DNA of 64,000 nucleotides, from the sequence record PZ168832.1; one strand, given 5' to 3'. Made by a program: the position numbers and the translations under genes. The notes under the pieces were generated by a model that saw only the letters and a program-made list of their open reading frames with translations, was not told the DNA's origin and did not search any database. This document shows, piece after piece, positions 1 through 20,332 of this stretch (the stretch's first letter is position 1; each line of letters opens with the position of its first letter). The stretch is from a phage.

Positions 1-354
1 ATTATTAGAACTCATTGATGTAAAGATTTCTGCACCAGAACGGTTTTCACCAATCAGGTTAATAAAGCCGCCAGTTGAACGAGGCTGAACGAAAGTGAAA
101 CGTTGCATCCACGGAGTGCGGTTGGCACCTTTCCCTGTGAATCCTTGAATCTGAATATTCAGGCCTTCTTGCTCGTTCACACCGATGTAAGTGGTAATTG
201 TTGCGCCAGTCGTCGCTGCGGTCTTGCCGTCCATCGCTTCGCAATCGTAAACAGCGATTGAATCGGAAGTACGGACAGCGGCTTCAGTCGCTTCCATATA
301 CATGGTTCCGAGAATAGCAGTTGCGGCAAGCGCGATTCCAGTGATGCGTTTCAT
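1..354 (-). CDS. secreted hypothetical protein (3' end cut by window edge)
   Basis: Not in the ORF track because it runs off the edge. Minus-strand ATG at 352-354 follows an AGAGGAAA SD. N-terminus MKRITGIALAATAILGTMYMEATEAA looks like a Sec signal peptide. Frame stays open to base 1. Confidence 0.55.
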   Translation of the reverse strand, partial: MKRITGIALAATAILGTMYMEATEAAVRTSDSIAVYDCEAMDGKTAATTGATITTYIGVNEQEGLNIQIQGFTGKGANRTPWMQRFTFVQPRSTGGFINLIGENRSGAEIFTSMSSNN

Positions 355-419
355 TTTCGTTTCCTCTATGATTTCTGCTTCAATGATTAAAGTATACGCC
401 CATTGAAGCAGAAAGCAAA

Positions 420-1415
420 TTATTTATTAGCAATATAAGCAAATTTTTGATAGTTATTTGCTTTGATGAGTTTTTCAACTTCAACAAGGTCATGAGCTAC
501 GTCATCAAGCAAGATGTTGCGCCATGTAGCGAATCGGCCAACACTGAATACGTTCAAATCCATAGTCAGCTGGAGCAGTAAGGCGTGTCGCAAGTCTTTC
601 GGAATGTCGACAATCTTGCCATATTTCTGGTCGACCTTTTCAACTTCTTCAAGAGCAATGTCACTCCATGAGAGGCCAAAGGCTGTCAATACTTCGTCAA
701 CTTCTGCACGCAACTTAATGTCACGGTAACGAGTGATGCCGCCAGCGGCTTCAATTGCGGCTTCACTTACGCTAACCAAAGGAATTGTTTCAATGATCAA
801 TGTGTCGCCAGTGATTGATGCGCGGTAAGTTCTGACGGAGTAGTCAGGAAAGTAAATGGTTTGATACAGTTCACACTTGCGTTTAATCTTAAAGCGGTAA
901 ACACGAATGTTTGCCTTGTCGAATGAGAAATCAATCTTTTGATCAATCCCAGCAAGCTTCATTATGACTGGCAGCGGCGATGTGTTGATGATTGGCGTCT
1001 CGCTATAGCCGCAAAGAGTATCAACAGGAGTATTAAAGAATATGCGGTCACCCAGTTTGTCGACAAGCTGATCATAAAAGTCATCAGGCGCAATATAACG
1101 CGTTGCAGTTTTAAGCTTCATGATTGAACGGCTGCCAAACTGATTGGTGACCTTCATGGAATACATGTTGGCAAGGTTGATTGGGCAATGGTCGTGGTAG
1201 TAGTTGCCGCGAAAATACACAGCCTTGTCAACTGTCACTGCCTTAAAAGGGATTCCGGTAATACGGCTTACTTCTTCGCCGCGAAAGCGTAGCAGCGCCT
1301 TGTGCTGTGGCGCTCGCTCCCCTGCTTCGTACACAATAGAGTTCGGGAAGTGACACGCGGTAATAAGTCCTGCCAAACCGCCGCCGATAATCATTACAGG
1401 TTGTTTCATGTTCAT
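420..1415 (-). CDS. FAD/NAD(P)-binding oxidoreductase-like protein
   Basis: 331-aa ORF with N-terminal Rossmann fingerprint VMIIGGGLAGLITA (GxGxxG). AAGGA SD. The start could instead be Met3 (1409). Confidence 0.7.
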   Translation of the reverse strand: MNMKQPVMIIGGGLAGLITACHFPNSIVYEAGERAPQHKALLRFRGEEVSRITGIPFKAVTVDKAVYFRGNYYHDHCPINLANMYSMKVTNQFGSRSIMKLKTATRYIAPDDFYDQLVDKLGDRIFFNTPVDTLCGYSETPIINTSPLPVIMKLAGIDQKIDFSFDKANIRVYRFKIKRKCELYQTIYFPDYSVRTYRASITGDTLIIETIPLVSVSEAAIEAAGGITRYRDIKLRAEVDEVLTAFGLSWSDIALEEVEKVDQKYGKIVDIPKDLRHALLLQLTMDLNVFSVGRFATWRNILLDDVAHDLVEVEKLIKANNYQKFAYIANK

Positions 1416-1493
1416 TTGTCCTTTGTGGGTGATATGAGAAGTATAATAGCTAAATTATTTTACAGCAACAAGTCATTTCTATTTAGTACAGAC

Positions 1494-1521
1494 GAAAAAA
1501 GACCCACAACAAGTGTGGGTC
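1494..1521 (-). terminator. rho-independent terminator after the KAE-rich gene
   Basis: Minus-strand hairpin GACCCACA-CTTGT-TGTGGGTC followed by TTTTTT. Confidence 0.75.
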
Positions 1522-1549
1522 AATTACCGCTATATAACCGTCCTACAGG

Positions 1550-2389
1550 TTATTCCGCTTGATCACCGTCTTCGGCATTGTCGTTGGATTCAACATCGAC
1601 AAACTCGATGTGTCCCATCTCTTCCAGCTTGCTCAGGTAGGAGCGAACGGAAGCGCCAAACAGTTGATCTTTAACTTTCTCGCCCAGCTCATCGATAGAC
1701 TGTGCCACGCCAACTTCGCCTTCTTTGATCGCCGCCAGAACGCGTCCACGGGTGGAATGCTCTTGCGGCTGGCTCAGGCCATTGCCAGTGTAGATGAAGT
1801 GAGTGGCTTTTGCACGACGCTGACCGTTTGCCTTTTTAGCAGCCTTGCGCTCTGCGATAGCTTTGCGACGTTCTTCAGCTTCTTTCTTACGCTGTTCTTT
1901 CTGCTGTTCCGCAGCTTCTTTCGCCGCAATCTTAGCAGCTTCACGCTCTGCCTTGCGTTTCGCCTTGGCTTCTTCTTTGGCCTTCTCTTTTTCGGCCTTC
2001 GCTGCAGCACGGGCTTGATCACGCTCTGCTTTCTTAGCAGCAGCCTGCTCTGCTTTCAGGCGCTTGGCTTCTTCTTTAGCCTTTGCCTTTTCGATTTCTT
2101 TTGCTGCTTTAGCGGCTTCACGCTCTGCTTTCTTAGCAGCAGCCTTTTCTGCACGCTCTTTAGCTTTCTTAGCTGCTTCTTCAGCACGCTTCTGAGCCTT
2201 CTCATCAGCAGCCTGTTTGCGCTTCAGCGCGGCTTCTTCACGCTTGGCTTGTTTTTCCTGCTCACGCTTCTGGCGTTTTTCTTCGGCTTCTTTCTTTTTA
2301 GCCAGGCGTTTTTCTTCAGCCACGCGACGACGTTCTGCTGCGGCTGCTTGTTTTTCTTCTTTAGATAATACTTTGATTGCTTCGGCCAT
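1550..2389 (-). CDS. Lys/Ala/Glu-rich charged-helix protein with a globular C-terminal domain
   Basis: About 200 aa of K/A/E/R low complexity (AEEKRLAKKKEAEEKRQKREQEKQAKREEAALKRK...), then a non-repetitive C-terminus (...RVLAAIKEGEVGVAQSIDELGEKV...SYLSKLEEMGHIEF). AAGGA SD sits 8 nt before ATG 2389; the ORF track starts at GTG 2395. Confidence 0.65.
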   Translation of the reverse strand: MAEAIKVLSKEEKQAAAAERRRVAEEKRLAKKKEAEEKRQKREQEKQAKREEAALKRKQAADEKAQKRAEEAAKKAKERAEKAAAKKAEREAAKAAKEIEKAKAKEEAKRLKAEQAAAKKAERDQARAAAKAEKEKAKEEAKAKRKAEREAAKIAAKEAAEQQKEQRKKEAEERRKAIAERKAAKKANGQRRAKATHFIYTGNGLSQPQEHSTRGRVLAAIKEGEVGVAQSIDELGEKVKDQLFGASVRSYLSKLEEMGHIEFVDVESNDNAEDGDQAE

Positions 2390-2548
2390 ATTCACAGTCC
2401 TTAAATAAATTAGTTTATTTTATATTCCCCGTTTGGGATAACTTAATTATGCCTTCAGTCGCCGCCAGTAGCAACTAAAAACTATGGCGGCAATGCCACT
2501 TTAATTAAACTGATTTTCAGTTTTATTTTTCGTAAATTTACGTCAACA

Positions 2549-3733
2549 TTAACGCGCTTTCAAATCACGGTACACGGTCAGATTCTTCTTAGCACGGGTG
2601 ATAGCGGTGTACATCATCTTGGAGTACGGAACGCCGCGCAGGATTTCTTCCAGCACGCACACGTTGTCCCACTCGCTGCCTTGCGATTTGTGGACCGTGA
2701 TTACATAGCCATAGTCCATCCCGCCAACAGCGCGTTGAGCCTCTTTGCGCACTTCCTGATCAGTAGAGAAGGAAAGAGGATTAATCTTAACCTTTATATC
2801 TTTGCCATCGGTAAGCGAGCGCAAATTGACATACATGATTTCATTGGACTCGTCTTCGTCCCTTTCAAAGTCCGGCACTGGCTCATAGCTAATAACAATC
2901 CCTTGCTCGCCATTACAGAATCCTGGGCCGTGTTGGTTGAAGGTGCAAATAACCTTCTCGCCGATTCCTGGCATTGGCGTTATACGTCCGCTCACTTGCC
3001 GTAATAATGAATTCCATTTGTCTTTGGTGCTATTATAGGAGCAAATAATTTGATCATCTTCGCCCATGAATTTCTTCAATGCAGTAACGCGCGGCGATTC
3101 TGCCAACACTTTGACGTCATCATATTCACGCGGAGGAAGGCGGTTGCCTTGGCGCACGAAGAAGGAGGCGCGGATAATGTTGGACTCTTTCCCTTGCCGC
3201 ATGATTTCTGTTAACAGTACGTCAACGGCTTCTTCGGTAAAGTAGGCGGCGGCTTTTACCGGAGGGACTTGTCCAATGTCGCCTAATGCCAGGACAGGGA
3301 TGCGGTGATCAAGAAGGCGCTCTGTGTCCCACTCGCCAACCATCGACGCTTCATCGAGTACAACAAGGTGCGGCCTTTCATCCAGCTTTGACTTTCTCGA
3401 AAAGATTGGCTCATTGTCGTCATTTACGCCGCGCACGTTATAGATGAACTGGTGAAGGGTCTTAGCGCCACGACAGCCTTTTTGCTTTAATCGGCTTGCA
3501 GCCTTTCCGGTCGGCGCAATATAGATAGCGCCGTACTCACCGACACAGCGGCGCACAATCTCGCGAGCAATAGAGGTTTTACCAGTCCCTGCATAGCCAG
3601 CGATGAAAAACACGCGCTTCGTCGTTTTACCGTCCTGCAATCGCTTGTACCATGCAACGGCTTTCTCGATGGCGTCGATTTGTTGCGCGTTAAACTGAAT
3701 CACTGGCTCATCATTAAATTCTGGAATGTTCAT
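2549..3733 (-). CDS. Dda/RecD-like SF1 DNA helicase
   Basis: Walker A GYAGTGKTS, Walker B VVLDEASMV, C-terminal ITVHKSQGSEWDNV. GGAG SD. Confidence 0.85.
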   Translation of the reverse strand: MNIPEFNDEPVIQFNAQQIDAIEKAVAWYKRLQDGKTTKRVFFIAGYAGTGKTSIAREIVRRCVGEYGAIYIAPTGKAASRLKQKGCRGAKTLHQFIYNVRGVNDDNEPIFSRKSKLDERPHLVVLDEASMVGEWDTERLLDHRIPVLALGDIGQVPPVKAAAYFTEEAVDVLLTEIMRQGKESNIIRASFFVRQGNRLPPREYDDVKVLAESPRVTALKKFMGEDDQIICSYNSTKDKWNSLLRQVSGRITPMPGIGEKVICTFNQHGPGFCNGEQGIVISYEPVPDFERDEDESNEIMYVNLRSLTDGKDIKVKINPLSFSTDQEVRKEAQRAVGGMDYGYVITVHKSQGSEWDNVCVLEEILRGVPYSKMMYTAITRAKKNLTVYRDLKAR

Positions 3734-15797: not shown

Positions 15798-16500
15798 TAT
15801 ACGTATTTATGACAGTTTAATCCACTAAATAATACGGATAGAACAGTGAGGAAAATACAGCGGTGTATTTTAGTGTAAATATTGAATCAAAAATAAATAA
15901 TTATGGTGCTATTATATACGCAGATTGTTTGTAATTTATAGGATATTTTATCGTGGAGTATTGGCTAACGGTGCGTTAGCCGTGGGTCTTGGTGCTTGTG
16001 GTGTTGATGCTCAGAATTTTAATAATGTTTTAGTTTTAGTAATCGTAGTCAATGATGATACGTATAAGAAAATGAGAGTCACCCCTTCACAGGATATTGT
16101 ACCGTGGCCCTGTGGTGCGCCGCGCCTGGGATTGCTGGTATACACTGGTGCTATTTTGCCGCGAAGGCAGTCATTCATACGTATCATGACGTATCATTGG
16201 GCTATTGATTTATAAGGAAAAATACGCTGATACGGATGATACGGGTGCAAACATAATATATATAGAATTCCAGAAAATTAATTAACTCCATTTTGAATTA
16301 ATTTAAATTAATTTTTTTCTACATCCTCATACTTATACTAAACTTATATTTATACGTATCATCCGTAAGATATAAGTAAAAACAAAGACTTGCGGCAATA
16401 CGGATGATACGTCATGATACGCTTCAACCAGCCATCTGCGGCTAAGTCATTGATTTGCATAACAAGCGGCGAAAGGGATGGATTTCTTTTATACGTATCA
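15798..16500. repeat. iteron cluster A: CGTATCATCCGTA / ACGGATGATACG units in both orientations around an AT-rich core (about 16250-16350)
   Basis: Units read at 15798, 15832, 16052, 16178-16197, 16229-16243, 16352-16367, 16398-16422 and 16491. The core contains GAATTC...AAATTAATT...TTTTTTT. Confidence 0.8.
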
Positions 16501-16586
16501 AACAGTACACCACGCACCACGGTCCGCAATCCACGCAGCATTATGATTTGTGTACATTTATAGCCATAATGAACATCAATCTGCAC

Positions 16587-16615
16587 TTGAATATAATGTC
16601 CATCCATTGTATAAT
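16587..16615 (+). promoter_or_regulatory. sigma70-like promoter upstream of terS
   Basis: TTGAAT (16587-16592), 17 nt spacer, TATAAT (16610-16615). Confidence 0.6.
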
Positions 16616-16650
16616 TCACACTATTAATTTGCACTATGGGATTTTGCACT

Positions 16651-17124
16651 ATGAGTCAAGACTATGTAGCGATGCCTGAAGACTTTGAAGACCCGCGATT
16701 TGCAGAGCACAATCAGGCTTTATTCGATGAGTTCATTGACCTTGTTATTCAGGGCCATGACATGCGCGCAGCTTTTGCACTAGTATTTGGAATGGAAGTT
16801 GCAACGGATAACTACACTGGACAGCGAATCCTTTGCGCGCAACGCAACCCATACTACAAAATGCGCTTCAAAAAGCGTATGGAAGAGATGCCACTCAAGG
16901 ATTTGTGGAGCGTAAAAGGTGCAATTCACAATTTGGTTAAGCTTGTGCGTGATCCAGAAGTCGCGGCGTCAGCCAAGCTTAATGCTATTCGCGAACTGAA
17001 TATCATCTACGGCATCACGATGATTGATGAAAACGGCAATAGTAAAATGGGCCGTTCCATGGACGATTTCTACAAGGATTTTGGAGAGGCAGCCAAAGAA
17101 GGCGAGCAATTCTCCCGCCACTAG
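16651..17124 (+). CDS. terS: terminase small subunit-like protein
   Basis: 157 aa. The segment PEVAASAKLNAIRELNIIYGI resembles the conserved helix of small terminases. N-terminal helical region. The ORF-track ATG 16636 lies inside the motif doublet and ATG 16651 is preferred. Assignment is by resemblance only. Confidence 0.5.
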   Translation: MSQDYVAMPEDFEDPRFAEHNQALFDEFIDLVIQGHDMRAAFALVFGMEVATDNYTGQRILCAQRNPYYKMRFKKRMEEMPLKDLWSVKGAIHNLVKLVRDPEVAASAKLNAIRELNIIYGITMIDENGNSKMGRSMDDFYKDFGEAAKEGEQFSRH

Positions 17125-17143
17125 CCAATTTGCACTATAAAAC

Positions 17144-17177
17144 GGCCCTAGAACACATCTTCTCCACTTCTAGGGCC
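17144..17177 (-). terminator. 10-bp perfect hairpin; likely terminator of the leftward island operon (and possibly of terS)
   Basis: GGCCCTAGAA-14 nt-TTCTAGGGCC. On the minus strand it is followed by GTTTTATAG. There is no U-run on the plus side. Confidence 0.55.
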
Positions 17178-17238
17178 GTCGGTAATACGACGGGGAAGGT
17201 TGCAACCGTAAACGCGTTAGAAAGTGTATTATTATAAG

Positions 17239-17502
17239 TCATCTTTTAGTCACCTTACGTAACAATTTACGACCTTCAGCCGTCCAATCGAACGACTCCA
17301 CCAGCAGATTCGCACTATAACCTAAGATGATGCGCCCTTTCTCGTTATCGACCCGCCAACAAGTCTCGAATAGCATTCGATTTGCACTATTAACTATCGC
17401 CGCAACGCGCGTAGGGTAAACGCAATTTGCACTATGGTCATAAAGGGATAAGGTGCGACCACTTCCGATGGACAACGTAGCGATGAGAATGAGCGTATTC
17501 AT
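17239..17502 (-). CDS. hypothetical protein with a signal-peptide-like N-terminus
   Basis: 87 aa with GGTGG SD. MNTLILIATLSIGSG.... Contains three in-frame copies of the reverse-complemented 12-mer (HSAN, NSAN, YSAN). Confidence 0.45.
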   Translation of the reverse strand: MNTLILIATLSIGSGRTLSLYDHSANCVYPTRVAAIVNSANRMLFETCWRVDNEKGRIILGYSANLLVESFDWTAEGRKLLRKVTKR

Positions 17503-17552
17503 AAGCCACCAATTTGCACTATGAAAAGCGACCCCGAAGGGCCGCCATTCGA

Positions 17553-18179
17553 TTAGATAATCTGGAAGGTGTAGGACTTGTTGCCGAACTCGAAGTTCAA
17601 GCGCCCAGCTTCCTTAAGCTTCATGCGGAAGCGAATATGTTTGCTATCCGGTAAGCCCAGCGCGGCGAACGCTACGCGGACCGATTTGAACTCTCCTACA
17701 CCCTCGACCATAACGCCGTTACGGGTAAGACGCTTTTGCGCCACTTCCTTATTATCCCAACTTTTTGCAATGCCTTCGCTATTCGAACGGCGATGGGAAG
17801 GAGTTCCGTTTTGCACTACGCAATTTGCACTATCGTTTAAACCGCTCTTAACGAAGGCTTCATACTCTTCGTCGGTCATCGCGTCGAGTTCTTCCTGCGT
17901 CGGCTCGGCCTTTTTAACGACCGCACGCGCCTTATGCGTTTTTACATCGCTGGACACTTCCTCGCGCGGCTTCGCGTCGGGGATGGGCGATTCGTTGGAC
18001 GGCTCATCGAGCGCGTTTAAGGACTCGATTAACGCGATTACGCGAGTCTCGGCGGTCCGGCGGTCCGAAAACTTCTTAATCGGTTTTGAGCCGGAATTTG
18101 CATTATAGAATGCAACGAGGTCGGCGGTCTTAGTTGCGATAACGTCGCCGCTAGTCGAGAAGCGATTTAAGCTAACCAT
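17553..18179 (-). CDS. hypothetical protein (possible DNA-binding protein of the island)
   Basis: 208 aa with AGGAG SD. Has a protein-like composition, an acidic/Pro-rich linker and a basic C-terminal domain (KRLTRNGV...SVRVAFAALGLPDSKHIRFRMKLK). Confidence 0.6.
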   Translation of the reverse strand: MVSLNRFSTSGDVIATKTADLVAFYNANSGSKPIKKFSDRRTAETRVIALIESLNALDEPSNESPIPDAKPREEVSSDVKTHKARAVVKKAEPTQEELDAMTDEEYEAFVKSGLNDSANCVVQNGTPSHRRSNSEGIAKSWDNKEVAQKRLTRNGVMVEGVGEFKSVRVAFAALGLPDSKHIRFRMKLKEAGRLNFEFGNKSYTFQII

Positions 18180-18259
18180 AATAAACTCCTATTTGTTAGG
18201 GCGCTAGGCGCGAAAGAATTTTATTAAAGCGCCGCGCACGACGCTCTAAAAATCCTCTC

Positions 18260-18544
18260 TTACGCTTCGACGAGGGAGAAGGTTTCAAATTCTTCTTCTC
18301 CCATAACGAGTAAAATATTCCCGATTTCGACCGCTTCGAAGAAGTATCCGTTAACGTTTACTTCGAATGATTCGCGGTCCGATTCCGGTAACGCCGCGTA
18401 AAGTTTAAAAGCCTCGGCGACCGTTACCCCACCCGCTTCAATAGTTTGATCTACGTTCGCGGCGTAGACTTCGGATAAATTTTGTTTTACGCCGTAGTTC
18501 TCGACGATAGCGTTACGGATAGAAGAAACGTTAAGAATAGCCAT
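18260..18544 (-). CDS. acidic small protein, island paralogue A1
   Basis: 94 aa with AGGAG SD. Paralogous to 19176-19466 (EVYAANVDQTIE / SVYLSNVDATIE; VNVNGYFFEAVEIG / VTINGFVYTITEIG). Confidence 0.6.
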   Translation of the reverse strand: MAILNVSSIRNAIVENYGVKQNLSEVYAANVDQTIEAGGVTVAEAFKLYAALPESDRESFEVNVNGYFFEAVEIGNILLVMGEEEFETFSLVEA

Positions 18545-18559
18545 TTTAAACTCCTAGTT

Positions 18560-18596
18560 GGGATAGGCGTTAACGACCTATTCGTTAACTCATCCC
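18560..18596 (-). other. conserved structured 5' leader (copy for A1)
   Basis: On the transcript: outer stem GGGAT/ATCCC and inner stem GTTAACGA/TCGTTAAC with loop ATAGG, just upstream of ACTAGGAG. Confidence 0.5.
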
Positions 18597-18612
18597 GTCC
18601 CGATATGAGTAC

Positions 18613-18640
18613 ATTATAATATAGTGTAGAAAAAAGTAAA
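18613..18640 (-). promoter_or_regulatory. island promoter P-L1
   Basis: TTTACT, 16 nt spacer containing TTTCTACACT, then TATAAT (minus strand). Confidence 0.6.
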
Positions 18641-18684
18641 GCACTTTTTCGATAAAAATGCGATAAATTATTTTATCTTTTTTC

Positions 18685-18712
18685 TTTACTTCTTCGTACA
18701 CTCGCGTATACT
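18685..18712 (+). promoter_or_regulatory. island promoter P-L2
   Basis: TTTACT, 16 nt spacer containing TTCGTACACT, then TATACT. Followed by GTTTATATCGAGACGGG, which is shared with the other copies. Confidence 0.6.
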
Positions 18713-18767
18713 TGTTTATATCGAGACGGGCGATGGCCTTTCTTCTACTAGCATCGGGAGCTTTATT

Positions 18768-19070
18768 ATGACTACTTTGATCTCTTCCATCCTTACTTAC
18801 GACGAAGACCGCTTAACCGTTCGCTCTCTTATCGCCGCCGTTAACGCGGAACTAGAATCTAGCGCCATTAAGGTCCGCGCGGTCGCCTTCATCGGCCTTT
18901 CCTTCGACGATATGAAGTACGCCGAACGTAGCGCCATCCGCTTCACGAAGACCGACGACGAAGCCGTTACCCTTATCGAGACGGTTACGCCGCGCGACGA
19001 AGCGTTAATTATCATCGAGTATATCGATATAGAAGGTGATAAAGCTTATAAATATTTTATCGCAAAATAA
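18768..19070 (+). CDS. acidic small protein, island gene B (possible distant paralogue of A1/A2)
   Basis: 100 aa with GGGAG SD. N-terminus MTTLISSI resembles MITLSAI and MAILNVSSI. Confidence 0.6.
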   Translation: MTTLISSILTYDEDRLTVRSLIAAVNAELESSAIKVRAVAFIGLSFDDMKYAERSAIRFTKTDDEAVTLIETVTPRDEALIIIEYIDIEGDKAYKYFIAK

Positions 19071-19081
19071 CGAAAAATTGC

Positions 19082-19110
19082 TTTACTTATTCGTACACTA
19101 AGACTATAAT
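19082..19110 (+). promoter_or_regulatory. island promoter P-L3
   Basis: TTTACT, 17 nt spacer containing TTCGTACACT, then TATAAT. Confidence 0.6.
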
Positions 19111-19121
19111 GTTTATATCGA

Positions 19122-19154
19122 GAGGGATGAGGAAGCGAATAGGTCGCTACCCTC
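19122..19154 (+). other. conserved structured 5' leader (copy for A2)
   Basis: Outer stem GAGGG/CCCTC and inner stem (A)GCGA/TCGC(T) with the same loop ATAGG, upstream of ACTAGGAG. Confidence 0.5.
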
Positions 19155-19175
19155 CCGACTAACTAGGAGAATATT

Positions 19176-19466
19176 ATGATTACTTTATCCGCTATCCGCG
19201 CCGCTCGCGTCGAAACTTCCGAAAACTCTAATGTATTTGGCGAAACCTTAGAGAGCGTTTATCTCTCTAACGTAGACGCGACTATCGAGTCTATTTATGA
19301 ACCGATCAACTTCCTCGACCTTTACAAGTATCGCGACGAGGACGTAGCATCCTACCGCGTAACGATTAACGGCTTCGTCTATACGATTACCGAAATCGGC
19401 GGCGAATATCTCGCGATCCCGCAACTCGGCGGAGAAGTGACTTATTTTAAAATCGTAAGCCTTTAA
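19176..19466 (+). CDS. acidic small protein, island paralogue A2
   Basis: 96 aa with AGGAG SD. Paralogue of 18260-18544. Confidence 0.6.
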   Translation: MITLSAIRAARVETSENSNVFGETLESVYLSNVDATIESIYEPINFLDLYKYRDEDVASYRVTINGFVYTITEIGGEYLAIPQLGGEVTYFKIVSL

Positions 19467-19477
19467 GGAGAAGAAAA

Positions 19478-19687
19478 ATGACTAATATGAATAACTCTCT
19501 TAACGCGCGCGCCCATCGTACCGCCGTCATCGATATGTTCCGCGAACTTAAGGAATTATGCGATAATATGAACGCGATGTTATCCATCGGCGGCTGGGGA
19601 TACGAAGAAGAGGTTAAATACGCGGTTATGCGTCGTAAGCGCGATAACGTCCTGGGACAAATTAAACGCGCCGGATTATTCCTTTAA
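19478..19687 (+). CDS. hypothetical small protein, island gene C
   Basis: 69 aa with AAGGAG SD. Confidence 0.55.
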   Translation: MTNMNNSLNARAHRTAVIDMFRELKELCDNMNAMLSIGGWGYEEEVKYAVMRRKRDNVLGQIKRAGLFL

Positions 19688-19713
19688 TTATAATTACCCA
19701 CCGTTACTAATAG

Positions 19714-19738
19714 GCCGCGCTTAGTCGCGGCTTTTCTT
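19714..19738 (+). terminator. rho-independent terminator of the rightward island operon
   Basis: GCCGCG-CTTAGT-CGCGGC followed by TTTTCTT. Confidence 0.7.
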
Positions 19739-19857
19739 CGTCCCTATTTCGATGCGCTTCTCCGCGAAAACTCCTTTATCCTTCCCTTCGTCGTCGCATA
19801 ATCTTCTTCGAGATGCTCCTTAGTTCGCATAACAGGTATTACGTTAAATGGAGAACA

Positions 19858-19931
19858 TCGCGTAAGTCCTTGTTTTATATAGACACCTATATCGGACCGT
19901 TAGGGCGGGTCGCGTAAGTCGTTGTTTTATA
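19858..19931 (+). repeat. two 22-bp direct repeats TCGCGTAAGTC(C/G)TTGTTTTATA
   Basis: Copies at 19858-19879 and 19910-19931, 52 bp apart, in non-coding DNA. Confidence 0.8.
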
Positions 19932-20056
19932 AAGGCGCAAAACTTTCCCTTCGTTCCGAACTAAAACGAGGAATATGCCGACCCTTCGTCCGAAAATAGT
20001 ACGCATGCGAAATTACATGCATCTAGAATAATCCCCACCGATATTATCCTACACGC

Positions 20057-20119
20057 AATCATTCGCTTTCGAATCATTATGCTTCATATTGTTATGCGTC
20101 AAATCATTCGCTTTCGAAT
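20057..20119 (+). repeat. two 18-bp direct repeats AATCATTCGCTTTCGAAT
   Basis: Copies at 20057-20074 and 20102-20119. Each contains the dyad ATTCG-CTTT-CGAAT. Confidence 0.8.
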
Positions 20120-20332
20120 TGTAACGCTGGAAACTGTAACGGCTATTGATTATTGCGTTCGTGTGGTTTTTATGGCATGGGTCTTTTGGTGCGTTTTGGT
20201 ACTTGATGGAATTTGCGGTACACTAATCAAAATACGACACATTTGGTCCACTAACTTTTCAAAGAAAAAGTCCCAGACAGTACCGTACTATTTTGTACCC
20301 ACAGTAAATTTGCAGTACACTCCTGCGCGGCA

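What the first reader, a model, noticed from the sequence alone, without database searches (positions are those of the whole stretch)
18545..19175. Conserved two-stem 5' leader with compensatory changes upstream of the paralogous island genes
The leaders of 18260-18544 (minus strand, 18545-18612) and 19176-19466 (19111-19175) align from the -10 element to the SD: ...ATATCG(G/A)GA(C/G)GGGATGAG..CGAATAGGTCG....CCC..ACTAGGAG.
- **Inner hairpin:** both copies keep the core CGA-ATAGG-TCG. The stem is extended by different but still complementary bases: GTTAACGA/TCGTTAAC in one copy and AGCGA/TCGCT in the other.
- **Outer stem:** it differs in sequence but is preserved as a pairing: GGGAT/ATCCC versus GAGGG/CCCTC.

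This pattern looks like covariation. It argues for a functional RNA structure, or a protein-binding palindrome, placed directly before the ribosome-binding site. The third promoter copy (18713-18767) shares only the first approximately 17 nt (GTTTATATCGAGACGGG). This could be a cis-regulatory leader, for example protein- or ligand-responsive, or a processing site. I do not recognise the class.
Basis: seen in the sequence. Interest (0 to 1): 0.55.

Follow-up and report, generated by a model that had tools for sequence, protein, structure and literature searches.

The report
Hairpin leader of phage early promoters
Two of three duplicated early promoters in the terminal repeat of an E. coli phage are followed by a conserved RNA hairpin before the ribosome-binding site; the promoter and leader resemble the classic T7 A1 promoter, the hairpin is probably a real RNA structure, and its function is untested.

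Summary

**Context.** The window is a Wifcevirus, an E. coli myophage. Region 18545-19175 lies in the middle of its ~3.9 kb direct terminal repeat (16290-20186). It holds three copies of one strong sigma70 early promoter: P_A, P_C and P_B.

**Inner hairpin: supported.** Leaders A and B share an 8-bp hairpin with loop AUAGG. Across about 65 genomes (11 distinct hairpins):
- three stem positions carry double (compensatory) changes;
- G.U and A.A intermediates are seen;
- 93% of cells are paired (0/500 shuffles reach the covariation score).

This points to a selected sense-strand RNA helix.

**Outer stem: not supported.** Shuffled or swapped flanks pair just as well, because the 5' flank is G-rich and the 3' flank C-rich.

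**New findings.**
- The transcript start AUCGAGAGGGA, plus GCGAAUAG and UCCCAA, match the phage T7 A1 early-promoter leader, which folds into the same nested 5' hairpin.
- The promoter-leader cassette is far more conserved than the genes it drives. Those genes are swapped at its 3' edge, as with PeSL cassettes of T4-like phages.

**Negatives.** No Rfam match, no terminator, no SD masking.

**Reading.** Most likely a 5'-proximal stabilising hairpin of immediate-early mRNAs. A trans-factor operator remains possible.

The parts
16290..20186 (.). Direct terminal repeat (DTR) of the phage genome, which contains the whole finding
   Evidence: The Mansfield record annotates DTR 1-3673 (PhageTerm). 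Its ends map to window 16290 and 20186.
18613..18640 (-). Promoter P_A (TTTACT-16-TATAAT)
   Evidence: Consensus scan scores 10/12. One of three copies of the 20-nt promoter core.
18545..18604 (-). Leader A, the 5' UTR of gene A. Predicted +1 is the A at 18604, or 2 nt upstream.
   Evidence: Sequence; fold -17.3 kcal/mol, z -1.9. The transcription start site (TSS) is inferred from the distance to the -10 element and from identity with the mapped T7 A1 start.
18569..18589 (-). Inner hairpin A: GUUAACGA-AUAGG-UCGUUAAC
   Evidence: covariation.
18551..18557 (-). SD of gene A (CUAGGAG), left unpaired
18260..18544 (-). Gene A (94 aa, acidic, function unknown), paralogue of gene B. This slot is replaced in other phages.
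18685..18712 (+). Promoter P_C (TTTACT-16-TATACT), divergent from P_A
18720..18767 (+). Leader C. It shares AUCGAGACGGG with leaders A and B, then carries its own small hairpin (GAGA.GGGC-GAUG-GCCU.UCUU).
18768..19070 (+). Gene C (100 aa, unrelated to A and B)
19082..19110 (+). Promoter P_B (TTTACT-17-TATAAT)
19117..19175 (+). Leader B, the 5' UTR of gene B. It begins AUCGAGAGGGA, identical to T7 A1 positions +1 to +11.
19131..19151 (+). Inner hairpin B: GGAAGCGA-AUAGG-UCGCUACC. The window's copy has an A.A mismatch; most relatives have GGUAGCGA.
19163..19169 (+). SD of gene B (CUAGGAG)
19176..19466 (+). Gene B (96 aa, acidic). It is present in every Wifcevirus examined.
19478..19687 (+). 69-aa gene (phrog_10377 'transcriptional regulator'), present in only some relatives
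19712..19733 (+). Intrinsic terminator that ends the P_C/P_B transcription unit
   Evidence: annotated at the same place in WFC and Mansfield.

Best explanation
The finding covers the 5' untranslated leaders of immediate-early mRNAs. These are made by host sigma70 RNA polymerase from three duplicated promoter-leader cassettes (P_A, P_C, P_B) in the direct terminal repeat of a Wifcevirus.

**The cassette.** It runs from about -45 to the SD and resembles the T7 A1 early promoter. The transcript starts AUCGAGAGGG. The G-rich start is folded back onto a C-rich segment downstream.

**The hairpin.** Copies A and B also enclose an 8-bp hairpin with loop AUAGG. This inner hairpin is a selected sense-strand RNA structure. 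It sits 12-15 nt upstream of an unpaired SD.

**Inferred mechanism.** The compact 5'-proximal structure hinders 5'-end-dependent decay by RppH and RNase E. This would give the first phage messages a long, gene-independent life.

**Evolutionary role.** The whole cassette is a portable expression unit. Its conserved sequence also serves as the homology at which early genes are swapped between phages.

**Shown:** the promoters, the sequence relationship to T7 A1, pairing and covariation of the inner helix, cassette conservation, and gene swapping at the cassette edge.

**Inferred:** the transcription start site, folding in vivo, and the stabilising function.
For: **Identity and setting**
- Wifcevirus, 92-97% identity to 29 phage records.
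- The DTR maps to window 16290-20186.
- Three promoter copies against 0.01 expected, each with good hexamers.

**Inner helix**
- 11 distinct variants from about 65 genomes, 93.2% paired.
- Pairs p4 (A-U/G.U/G-C), p6 (U-A/A.A/A-U) and p7 (U-A/G-C/C-G) change on both sides.
- Covariation score 0.305 against 0.111+-0.034 in shuffles (0/500); further pair types reached in 21/500.
- The G.U states fit only the sense RNA.

**Conservation** (nucleotide diversity, pi)
- Module B: inner stem-loop 0.013, promoter 0.043, upstream 0.21, third codon positions 0.21.
- Module A: promoter 0.002, 5' flank 0.000, stem-loop 0.019.

**T7 A1**
- The annotated start at 498 gives AUCGAGAGGGACACGGCGAAUAGCCAUCCCAAUCGA.
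- A pattern taken from leader B hits T7 exactly at that start, among 20 hits in all of IMG/VR.
- Local alignment of +1 to +50 scores 24 against 12+-2.2 in shuffles (2/2000).
- The T7 A1 RNA folds from +2 into the same nested hairpin, z -4.25.
- T7-like variants mostly keep its pairs through C-G/U-G/U-A and G.U changes, with C.A mismatches in two phages.

**Related leaders**
- More distant relatives (36-39% aa identity) have a sigma70 promoter, a hairpin at +3 and an unstructured spacer before the SD of the orthologous gene. Their sequences are unrelated to this leader.

**Mosaic**
- Leader A precedes three different genes, and the junction lies at the SD/ATG.

**Established knowledge**
- 5' secondary structure stabilises E. 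coli mRNAs because RppH and RNase E need single-stranded 5' ends (PMC3997798).
Against: - Predicted single-stranded 5' tails are 3 nt in A and C but 4-8 nt in B, against 1 nt in T7 A1. That may be long enough for RppH and RNase E access.
- Fold z-scores are modest: -1.1 to -3.1 for A/B and about 0 for C.
- The loop AUAGG is almost invariant, with one variant among about 130 copies. A mere stabiliser does not require that.
- Other sigma70-like promoters in the window have short unstructured leaders.
- Three low-frequency variants break a stem pair, and the window's own B copy is one of them.
- Compensatory changes in a palindrome can also arise by template switching, without selection.
- No TSS mapping, half-life or structure-probing data exist.
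Confidence: 0.4

Rival explanations
1. The hairpin is an RNA operator. Its loop AUAGG and the GAUGAG internal loop would be recognised by a phage or host RNA-binding protein. That protein would switch the immediate-early messages off or on after the first minute of infection, through translational repression, targeted cleavage or antitermination.
For: - The pattern of covarying stem, near-invariant loop and conserved 5' internal loop is typical of protein-binding hairpins.
- The stem-loop is the least variable part of the region.
- The hairpin lies 12-15 nt from the SD.
- Leaders A and B, heading two divergent operons, share it. Leader C does not.
Against: - No candidate binder was found. Proteins A and B are strongly acidic and have no recognisable fold.
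- The 69-aa 'regulator' is absent from many phages that keep the leader.
- The loop does not look like lambda or P22 boxB (from memory), and there is no boxA in the leaders.
- The homologous loop varies in T7-like phages: GAAUA, GAGUA, UAAGA.
- With so few variable sites, loop invariance is not statistically distinguishable from stem variability.
Confidence: 0.2
2. There is no dedicated RNA function. The conserved +1 to +27 stretch would be a DNA-level part of a very strong promoter (an initial transcribed region that aids promoter escape), inherited together with the T7-A1-like promoter. Under this reading the hairpin is an incidental quasi-palindrome. Cassette uniformity reflects promoter selection plus frequent recombination or gene conversion at these repeats.
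For: - The first 10-11 transcribed nt are shared by all three copies and by T7 A1.
- CGAAUAG lies at +17 to +27 in both T7 and this phage, although it sits in a different pairing register in each.
- The outer stem is explained by base composition alone.
- The cassettes are recombination junctions.
Against: - Three stem positions show double changes that keep pairing, with G.U and A.A intermediates later compensated.
- The G.U state is maintained in at least seven genomes in two different gene contexts.
- Positions beyond about +20 lie outside the usual RNA polymerase open-complex footprint (established knowledge).
Confidence: 0.2
3. The two-helix hairpin is an RNase III (or other endonuclease) processing site, like those of T7 early mRNA or the lambda N leader. 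Cleavage there would create a new 5' end and set translation efficiency.
For: - Two helices separated by an asymmetric internal loop, placed in an early-mRNA leader.
- T7 early RNAs are known RNase III substrates (established knowledge).
Against: - The stacked helix is only 8 + 4-7 bp, well short of the roughly 20 bp of classical sites.
- The outer helix is not specifically conserved.
Confidence: 0.07
4. The inverted repeat is a DNA operator for a dimeric repressor that blocks elongation just downstream of the promoter.
For: An 8-bp inverted repeat with a 5-bp spacer lies at +16 to +36 of two promoters.
Against: - The half-sites differ between A and B at 2 of 8 positions, and at a third position in other lineages.
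- Asymmetric G.T-type states persist.
- The centre is not symmetric.
- P_C lacks the repeat.
Confidence: 0.05

Closest known systems
Phage T7 A1 early promoter and the 5' leader of its transcript
   Same: - A strong sigma70 promoter near the genome end.
- The transcript begins AUCGAGAGGGA, identical for 11 nt to leader B.
- GCGAAUAG and UCCCAA follow in the same order.
- The RNA folds into a nested 5' hairpin in which GGGA pairs with UCCC around a small central hairpin.
   Different: - Unrelated phage family: Autographiviridae versus Lindbergviridae.
- The T7 central stem is 3 bp (loop GAAUA); here it is 8 bp (loop AUAGG), in a pairing register shifted by 2 nt.
- The T7 leader runs about 400 nt to an RNase III site. 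Here the SD follows within 15 nt.
- Upstream promoter sequence is not significantly similar.
- Homology versus convergence is undecided.
PeSL cassettes (promoter-early stem-loops) of T4-like phages (PMC2839356, PMC4122927)
   Same: - A repeated unit of about 100 nt: AT-rich region, sigma70 early promoter, stem-loop with G-run/C-run pairing, then SD and start codon.
- The units flank small orphan genes in a plastic region.
- Replacement and deletion junctions between close relatives fall at the cassettes.
   Different: - Different phage lineage.
- Only three copies, all in the terminal repeat.
- The stem-loop is in the transcribed leader and has no U-run, so it is unlikely to act as the terminator described for PeSLs.
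- Mini-circles were not tested.
5'-terminal stabilising stem-loops of E. coli mRNAs (ompA, papA; reviewed in PMC3997798)
   Same: A hairpin close to the 5' end of an mRNA, upstream of an accessible RBS.
   Different: - Predicted unpaired tail of 3-8 nt.
- No half-life data.
- The loop sequence is conserved here.
Phage RNA operators and processing hairpins in early leaders (lambda nut boxB, lambda N-leader and T7 RNase III sites)
   Same: A small hairpin in the leader of the first phage transcripts.
   Different: - The loop is not GNRA-like and there is no boxA.
- The helix is too short for a classical RNase III site.
- No Rfam family matches.

Membership tests
T7 A1-type early promoter/leader | sigma70 -35 and -10 hexamers at 16-17 nt spacing | tested here: met
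   TTTACT-16/17-TATAAT or TATACT at all three copies.
T7 A1-type early promoter/leader | Transcript begins AUCGAGAGGG | tested here: met
   - B: 11/11 identical to T7 +1 to +11.
- C: AUCGAGACGGG.
- A: AUCGGGACGGG.
- The start site itself is inferred, not mapped.
T7 A1-type early promoter/leader | 5' nested hairpin that pairs the G-rich start with a downstream (U)CCC | tested here: met
   Predicted for T7 A1 (z -4.25) and for leaders A, B and C. The pairing is compositional rather than position-specific.
T7 A1-type early promoter/leader | Significant similarity of the upstream promoter DNA | tested here: not met
   The -60 to -1 alignment is no better than shuffles for B, and only marginal for A.
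PeSL cassette | Repeated AT-rich region + sigma70 early promoter + stem-loop + SD/ATG | tested here: met
   definition taken from PMC2839356.
PeSL cassette | Flanks orphan genes, and coincides with insertion, deletion or replacement junctions between close relatives | tested here: met
   - The gene-A slot is replaced exactly at the edge of leader A.
- Three different genes follow leader A.
- F13 carries an extra B cassette fused to a gene-C-like fragment.
PeSL cassette | The stem-loop acts as terminator or attenuator of upstream transcription | tested here: not met
   No U-run follows the hairpin, and the terminator scan finds nothing in the leaders. Activity was not assayed.
PeSL cassette | Member of the T4-like myoviruses; forms mini-circles | tested here: not met
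   Taxonomy is Lindbergviridae, genus Wifcevirus. Mini-circle formation is not testable here.
5'-terminal stabiliser stem-loop (ompA type) | The helix starts within a very few nt of the 5' end | tested here: inconclusive
   Leading nt with P(unpaired) > 0.5: A 3, C 3, B 4-8, T7 A1 1. The TSS is predicted only.
5'-terminal stabiliser stem-loop (ompA type) | Lengthens mRNA half-life in an RNase E/RppH-dependent way | not testable with these tools
   Needs rifampicin-chase experiments.
Riboswitch or any curated RNA family (Rfam 15) | Match to a covariance model | tested here: not met
   No hit in 18545-19175, even at E <= 10.
RNase III processing site (T7 R-type) | About two turns of stacked helix with an internal loop | tested here: not met
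   8 bp plus 4-7 bp. Cleavage was not assayed.
lambda-type nut site | boxB (5-bp stem, GNRA-like pentaloop) preceded by boxA | tested here: not met
   The loop is AUAGG, and there is no boxA-like sequence in the leaders.
Intrinsic terminator/attenuator | GC-rich hairpin followed by a U-run | tested here: not met
   The hairpin is followed by CCCAACUAGGAG or CGACUAACUAGGAG.
SD-sequestering translational control element | The leader pairs with the SD or AUG | tested here: not met
   SD-AUG accessibility is 0.32-0.63 and no different from constructs with shuffled upstream sequence.

The most novel reading that the evidence does not exclude
The AUAGG-loop hairpin, together with the GAUGAG internal loop, is a sequence-specific RNA operator for a still unknown host or phage factor. 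That factor would time the expression or shut-off of the immediate-early genes. The hairpin would be an elaborated form of an element already present in the T7 A1 leader. On this reading it is a previously unrecognised class of early-leader RNA motif shared by unrelated coliphages.
Probability: 0.12. Interest if true: 0.6.

Novelty: new variant of a known kind. Interest (0 to 1): 0.35.

Why it matters
- Wifceviruses are little studied and are reported to replicate unusually fast (PMC11990801). This result pins down their immediate-early transcription units and the exact cassette that drives them.
- The cassette is a compact, portable unit of strong promoter, leader and SD. Nature re-uses it in front of different genes, which makes it of practical interest as an expression part.
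- It is also a marker for finding early genes, possibly host-takeover or anti-defence genes.
- The match to the T7 A1 leader suggests one of two things: horizontal spread of early promoter-leader modules between unrelated coliphages, or a shared constraint on the first 40 nt of very strong E. coli promoters. Either can be tested directly.
- The result is not a new regulatory principle.

Tried and rejected
1. **Rfam scan** at E <= 10: nothing in the region.
2. **Outer-stem covariation:** rejected by flank shuffling and flank swapping.
3. **'Insulator' idea** (the hairpin keeps the SD open): SD accessibility is no better than with shuffled upstream sequence.
4. **General habit of 5' hairpins in this phage:** other sigma70-like promoters in the window have short unstructured leaders.
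5. **Wider distribution of the leader:**
   - An IMG/VR scan with the hairpin motif found only Wifcevirus plus chance hits in coding DNA.
   - A stem-free pattern in JGI metagenomes gave one chance hit.
   - A degenerate promoter + ITS pattern was too loose. Only T7-like phages and a few isolated promoter-like sites (L096, L097, L101, L139) looked real.
6. **boxA/nut:** nothing beyond chance.
7. **Regulator candidates:** Pfam gave nothing significant, and PHROGs matched only three neighbouring genes (phrog_10377 'transcriptional regulator' for the 69-aa protein; phrog_4730 and phrog_4783, function unknown), nothing for A, B, C or the 87-aa ORF. The 69-aa protein has no solved relative.
8. **Structure of protein B:** pLDDT 70, no fold match.
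9. **Literature:** nothing on Wifcevirus promoters or on a role for the T7 A1 leader hairpin.
10. **Covariance-model search:** considered but not run. MAFFT misaligned the 3' arm, and the T7 stem is 5 bp shorter, so the test would not have been fair.
Full report
**What the window is.** Region 17500-19800 matches 29 phage records at 92-97% identity. All are Wifcevirus, E. coli/Shigella myophages of about 68 kb now placed in Lindbergviridae. The Mansfield record annotates a PhageTerm-predicted direct terminal repeat at 1-3673. Its ends map to window 16290 and 20186. The finding (18545-19175) therefore lies in the middle of the terminal repeat. By analogy with T7, T5 and SPO1 (established knowledge), I infer that this region carries the first genes expressed.

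**Checking the observation.** The sequence is as described.
- Three near-identical sigma70 promoters are present. The 20-nt core GCTTTACTTNTTCGTACACT occurs three times against 0.01 expected.
  - P_A: minus strand, -35 at 18640-18635, -10 at 18618-18613.
  - P_C: 18685-18712.
  - P_B: 19082-19110.
- All three were also picked up by the consensus scan.
- The shared stretch continues to about +10 (TATATCGAGACGGG).
- Leaders A and B go on to share GGGAUGAG, CGAAUAGGUCG and ACUAGGAG. Leader C diverges after +11.
- Genes A and B are paralogues (34% identity, E 2e-7). Gene C is unrelated.

**The inner hairpin is a selected helix.** I collected the region from 22 GenBank and IMG/VR genomes. Logan, ENA and NCBI assemblies brought the sample to about 65 genomes, about 130 A/B leader copies and 28 unique leaders. 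Numbering stem pairs p1-p8 outward from the loop:
- Most B copies have a perfect 8-bp stem, GGUAGCGA/UCGCUACC. A copies have GUUAACGA/UCGUUAAC.
- p4 is A-U in A, G-C in B, and G.U in a sub-lineage of A found in at least seven genomes.
- p7 is U-A in A, G-C in B, and C-G in a divergent A copy (L191).
- p6 is U-A in most B copies and A.A in the window, kaset and L191. It is A-U in L196/L197, where the 3' arm has changed.
- Two singletons break a pair: Bas98 (C.A) and L207 (A.C).

On the 11 distinct hairpins, 93.2% of cells pair and three pairs change on both sides. Six further pair types are seen (21/500 shuffles reach that). The covariation score is 0.305 against 0.111+-0.034 (0/500). Every slid register collapses to 18-53% pairing (the smaller set is). 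For the A-versus-B comparison alone, I estimate the chance that two substitutions per arm fall on partner positions and restore pairing at about 1/252 (my calculation). The G.U states make sense only for the sense-strand RNA. Caveats:
- The sequences are closely related.
- The tool's shuffle control ignores phylogeny.
- Template-switch mutation in palindromes can mimic compensation.

**The outer stem is not covariation.** In the alignment, GGGAUGAG is homologous in A and B, and GGGA pairs with UCCC in both. The 5' flank is almost invariant (pi 0.000-0.024). The 3' flank is the most variable part of the leader (pi 0.084 in B, 0.17 in A). Keeping the inner hairpin and shuffling each flank gives as much extra folding energy as the native order (fraction at or below observed: 0.09-0.69). 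The 3' flanks of A and B can be exchanged without loss. What is preserved is composition: a G-rich start and a C-rich segment after the hairpin.

**Relationship to T7 A1.**
- Leader B begins AUCGAGAGGGA. I recalled this as the start of the T7 A1 transcript. The T7 record (A1 start annotated at 498) confirms AUCGAGAGGGACACGGCGAAUAGCCAUCCCAAUCGAC.
- T7 shares +1 to +11 and GCGAAUAG with B, and AUCCCAA with the window's A copy, all in the same order.
- A pattern derived only from leader B (ATCGAGAGGG-N1-14-CGAATAG) has 20 hits in all of IMG/VR. Five loci are Wifcevirus, one is T7 exactly at the A1 start, and the rest lie in unrelated, mostly coding contexts.
- Local alignment of +1 to +50 scores 24 against 12.0+-2.2 for shuffles (2/2000). 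The upstream promoter DNA is not significantly similar. T7 A2 and A3 serve as negative controls.
- The T7 A1 RNA folds from +2 as UCGA-GA-GGGA-CAC-GGC-GAAUA-GCC-A-UCCC-AA-UCGA (z -4.25). This is the same nested plan.
- T7-like phages mostly keep these pairs through C-G, U-G and U-A states and G.U changes, with some C.A mismatches. Their loop varies.
- BLAST finds no intermediates between the two groups.
- A few other putative phage promoters also start AUCGAGAGGG. One is in a promoter array at the end of a 99-kb contig, where the start pairs with CCGCCUCUCCCGA (L101).
- Whether this is shared ancestry or convergence cannot be decided here.

**The cassette, not the gene, is the conserved unit.**
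- Along module B, diversity is 0.21 upstream, 0.043 in the promoter, 0.024 at +1 to +15 and 0.013 in the stem-loop. It is 0.026 at SD-AUG and 0.12/0.09/0.21 at codon positions 1/2/3.
- Protein B falls to 61% identity in WFC while its leader stays about 97% identical.
- Between the window and WFC, the gene-A slot (18250-18545) is replaced by unrelated sequence. Identity returns to 98-100% exactly at leader A. The WFC gene is not detectably related to A (E 0.3).
- In ECML-117, Ro157lw, Eco4M-7 and RCIP0319 the same leader sits directly before the 208-aa gene. F13 has an extra B cassette joined to a gene-C-like fragment just before the ATG.
- This matches the behaviour described for PeSL cassettes of T4-like phages (PMC2839356). 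The difference is that the stem-loop here is transcribed and has no U-run.

**What the element is not.**
- It matches no Rfam family.
- It is not an intrinsic terminator.
- It does not mask the SD. Accessibility is 0.32-0.63, the same as with shuffled upstream sequence.
- It is not a nut site.
- Its helix is too short for a classical RNase III site.
- It is not a general feature of this phage's promoters.
- No RNA-binding candidate was found among the neighbouring proteins.
- Nothing about these leaders appears in the literature searched.

**Most likely mechanism.** The orthologous early gene of more distant relatives (36-39% aa identity) is also preceded by a sigma70 promoter, a hairpin at +3 and an unstructured spacer, with unrelated sequences. 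Leader C keeps a hairpin on the G-rich start in three different forms. One form has the same stem but a completely different loop in two phages. Together with T7 A1, this points to a structural role for a 5'-proximal hairpin in the first transcripts. The established explanation is protection from RppH and RNase E, both of which need single-stranded 5' ends (PMC3997798). Three points count against it:
- The predicted 5' tails are 3 nt (A, C) to 4-8 nt (B), against 1 nt in T7 A1.
- Fold z-scores are modest.
- The AUAGG loop is nearly invariant, which a pure stabiliser does not need.

I therefore give the stabiliser reading 0.4. The rivals are a trans-factor RNA operator (0.2), a DNA-level promoter element with an incidental hairpin (0.2), a processing site (0.07) and a DNA operator (0.05).

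**Verdict.** This is a real, conserved leader with one well-supported RNA helix. It is embedded in T7-A1-like immediate-early promoter cassettes that also act as mosaic junctions. It is a new variant of known kinds of element, of moderate interest, and its function is open to simple experiments.

Noticed in passing
window 16626-18108 (+ strand); also 58978: A 14-nt motif, AATTTGCACTATGG, occurs seven times on the + strand only, all inside the terminal repeat. Some copies lie within minus-strand ORFs. At up to 2 mismatches there are 8 hits in the window against 0.73 expected. It could be a phage-specific promoter or a packaging or replication repeat.
   Followed up: partly
window 18591-18583 (-) and 19128-19163 (+): The 5' arm of the hairpin contains a mini-ORF: AUG-AGU-UAA in leader A and AUG-AGG-UAG in most B leaders. 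The two covarying 5'-arm positions keep a stop codon. In the window's B copy the U-to-A change turns UAG into AAG and extends the ORF to 11 codons plus a stop. The AUG is absent in kaset-type leaders (GGAGAG), so the ORF is probably incidental.
   Followed up: no
window 19137 (leader B): The window's own B hairpin carries an A.A mismatch (GGAAGCGA). This costs about 5-6 kcal/mol relative to the majority form. A lineage (L196/L197) with the same 5' arm has a changed 3' arm (UCGCCUUCC) that restores pairing.
   Followed up: yes
L039 (phage F13) 1883-2290: F13 has two B cassettes. The first is fused, just before the ATG position, to a fragment resembling the middle of gene C. This looks like a recombination scar at the cassette edge.
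   Followed up: partly
window 19478-19687: A 69-aa gene (phrog_10377, 'transcriptional regulator', E 1e-37) follows gene B in some phages. It is missing from WFC, WFH, Mansfield and others, where the terminator follows B directly.
   Followed up: partly
window 16054-16500: An AT-rich stretch with several perfect inverted repeats of ACGTATCAT-type units (for example 16180-16197 / 16404-16421) spans the left boundary of the terminal repeat at 16290.
   Followed up: no
L030 3990-4000, L031 90-120, L028 3960-3990: More distant relatives share a conserved, A-rich, unstructured spacer (GGAACCCAGAAAGAACCUAGAAAGGAG) between their 5' hairpin and the start of the 208-aa gene homologue.
   Followed up: no
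L101 1-900: A 99-kb IMG/VR contig starts with an array of four TTGACT-type promoters. The first has the T7-A1-like start ATCGAGAGGGCGG, which pairs with CCGCCTCTCCCGA.
   Followed up: partly
window 18260-18544 and 19176-19466: Proteins A and B are small and strongly acidic (B has a net charge of about -8). They are found only in Wifcevirus, have no Pfam or PHROG match, and B has no PDB fold match (AF2 pLDDT 70). They sit where T7 has its DNA-mimic gene 0.3, but nothing here shows a similar function.
   Followed up: partly
window 58508 (-): Another sigma70-like promoter (TTGACT-17-CATAAT) has a predicted transcript that also begins AUCGA. Its leader is short and unstructured.
   Followed up: no
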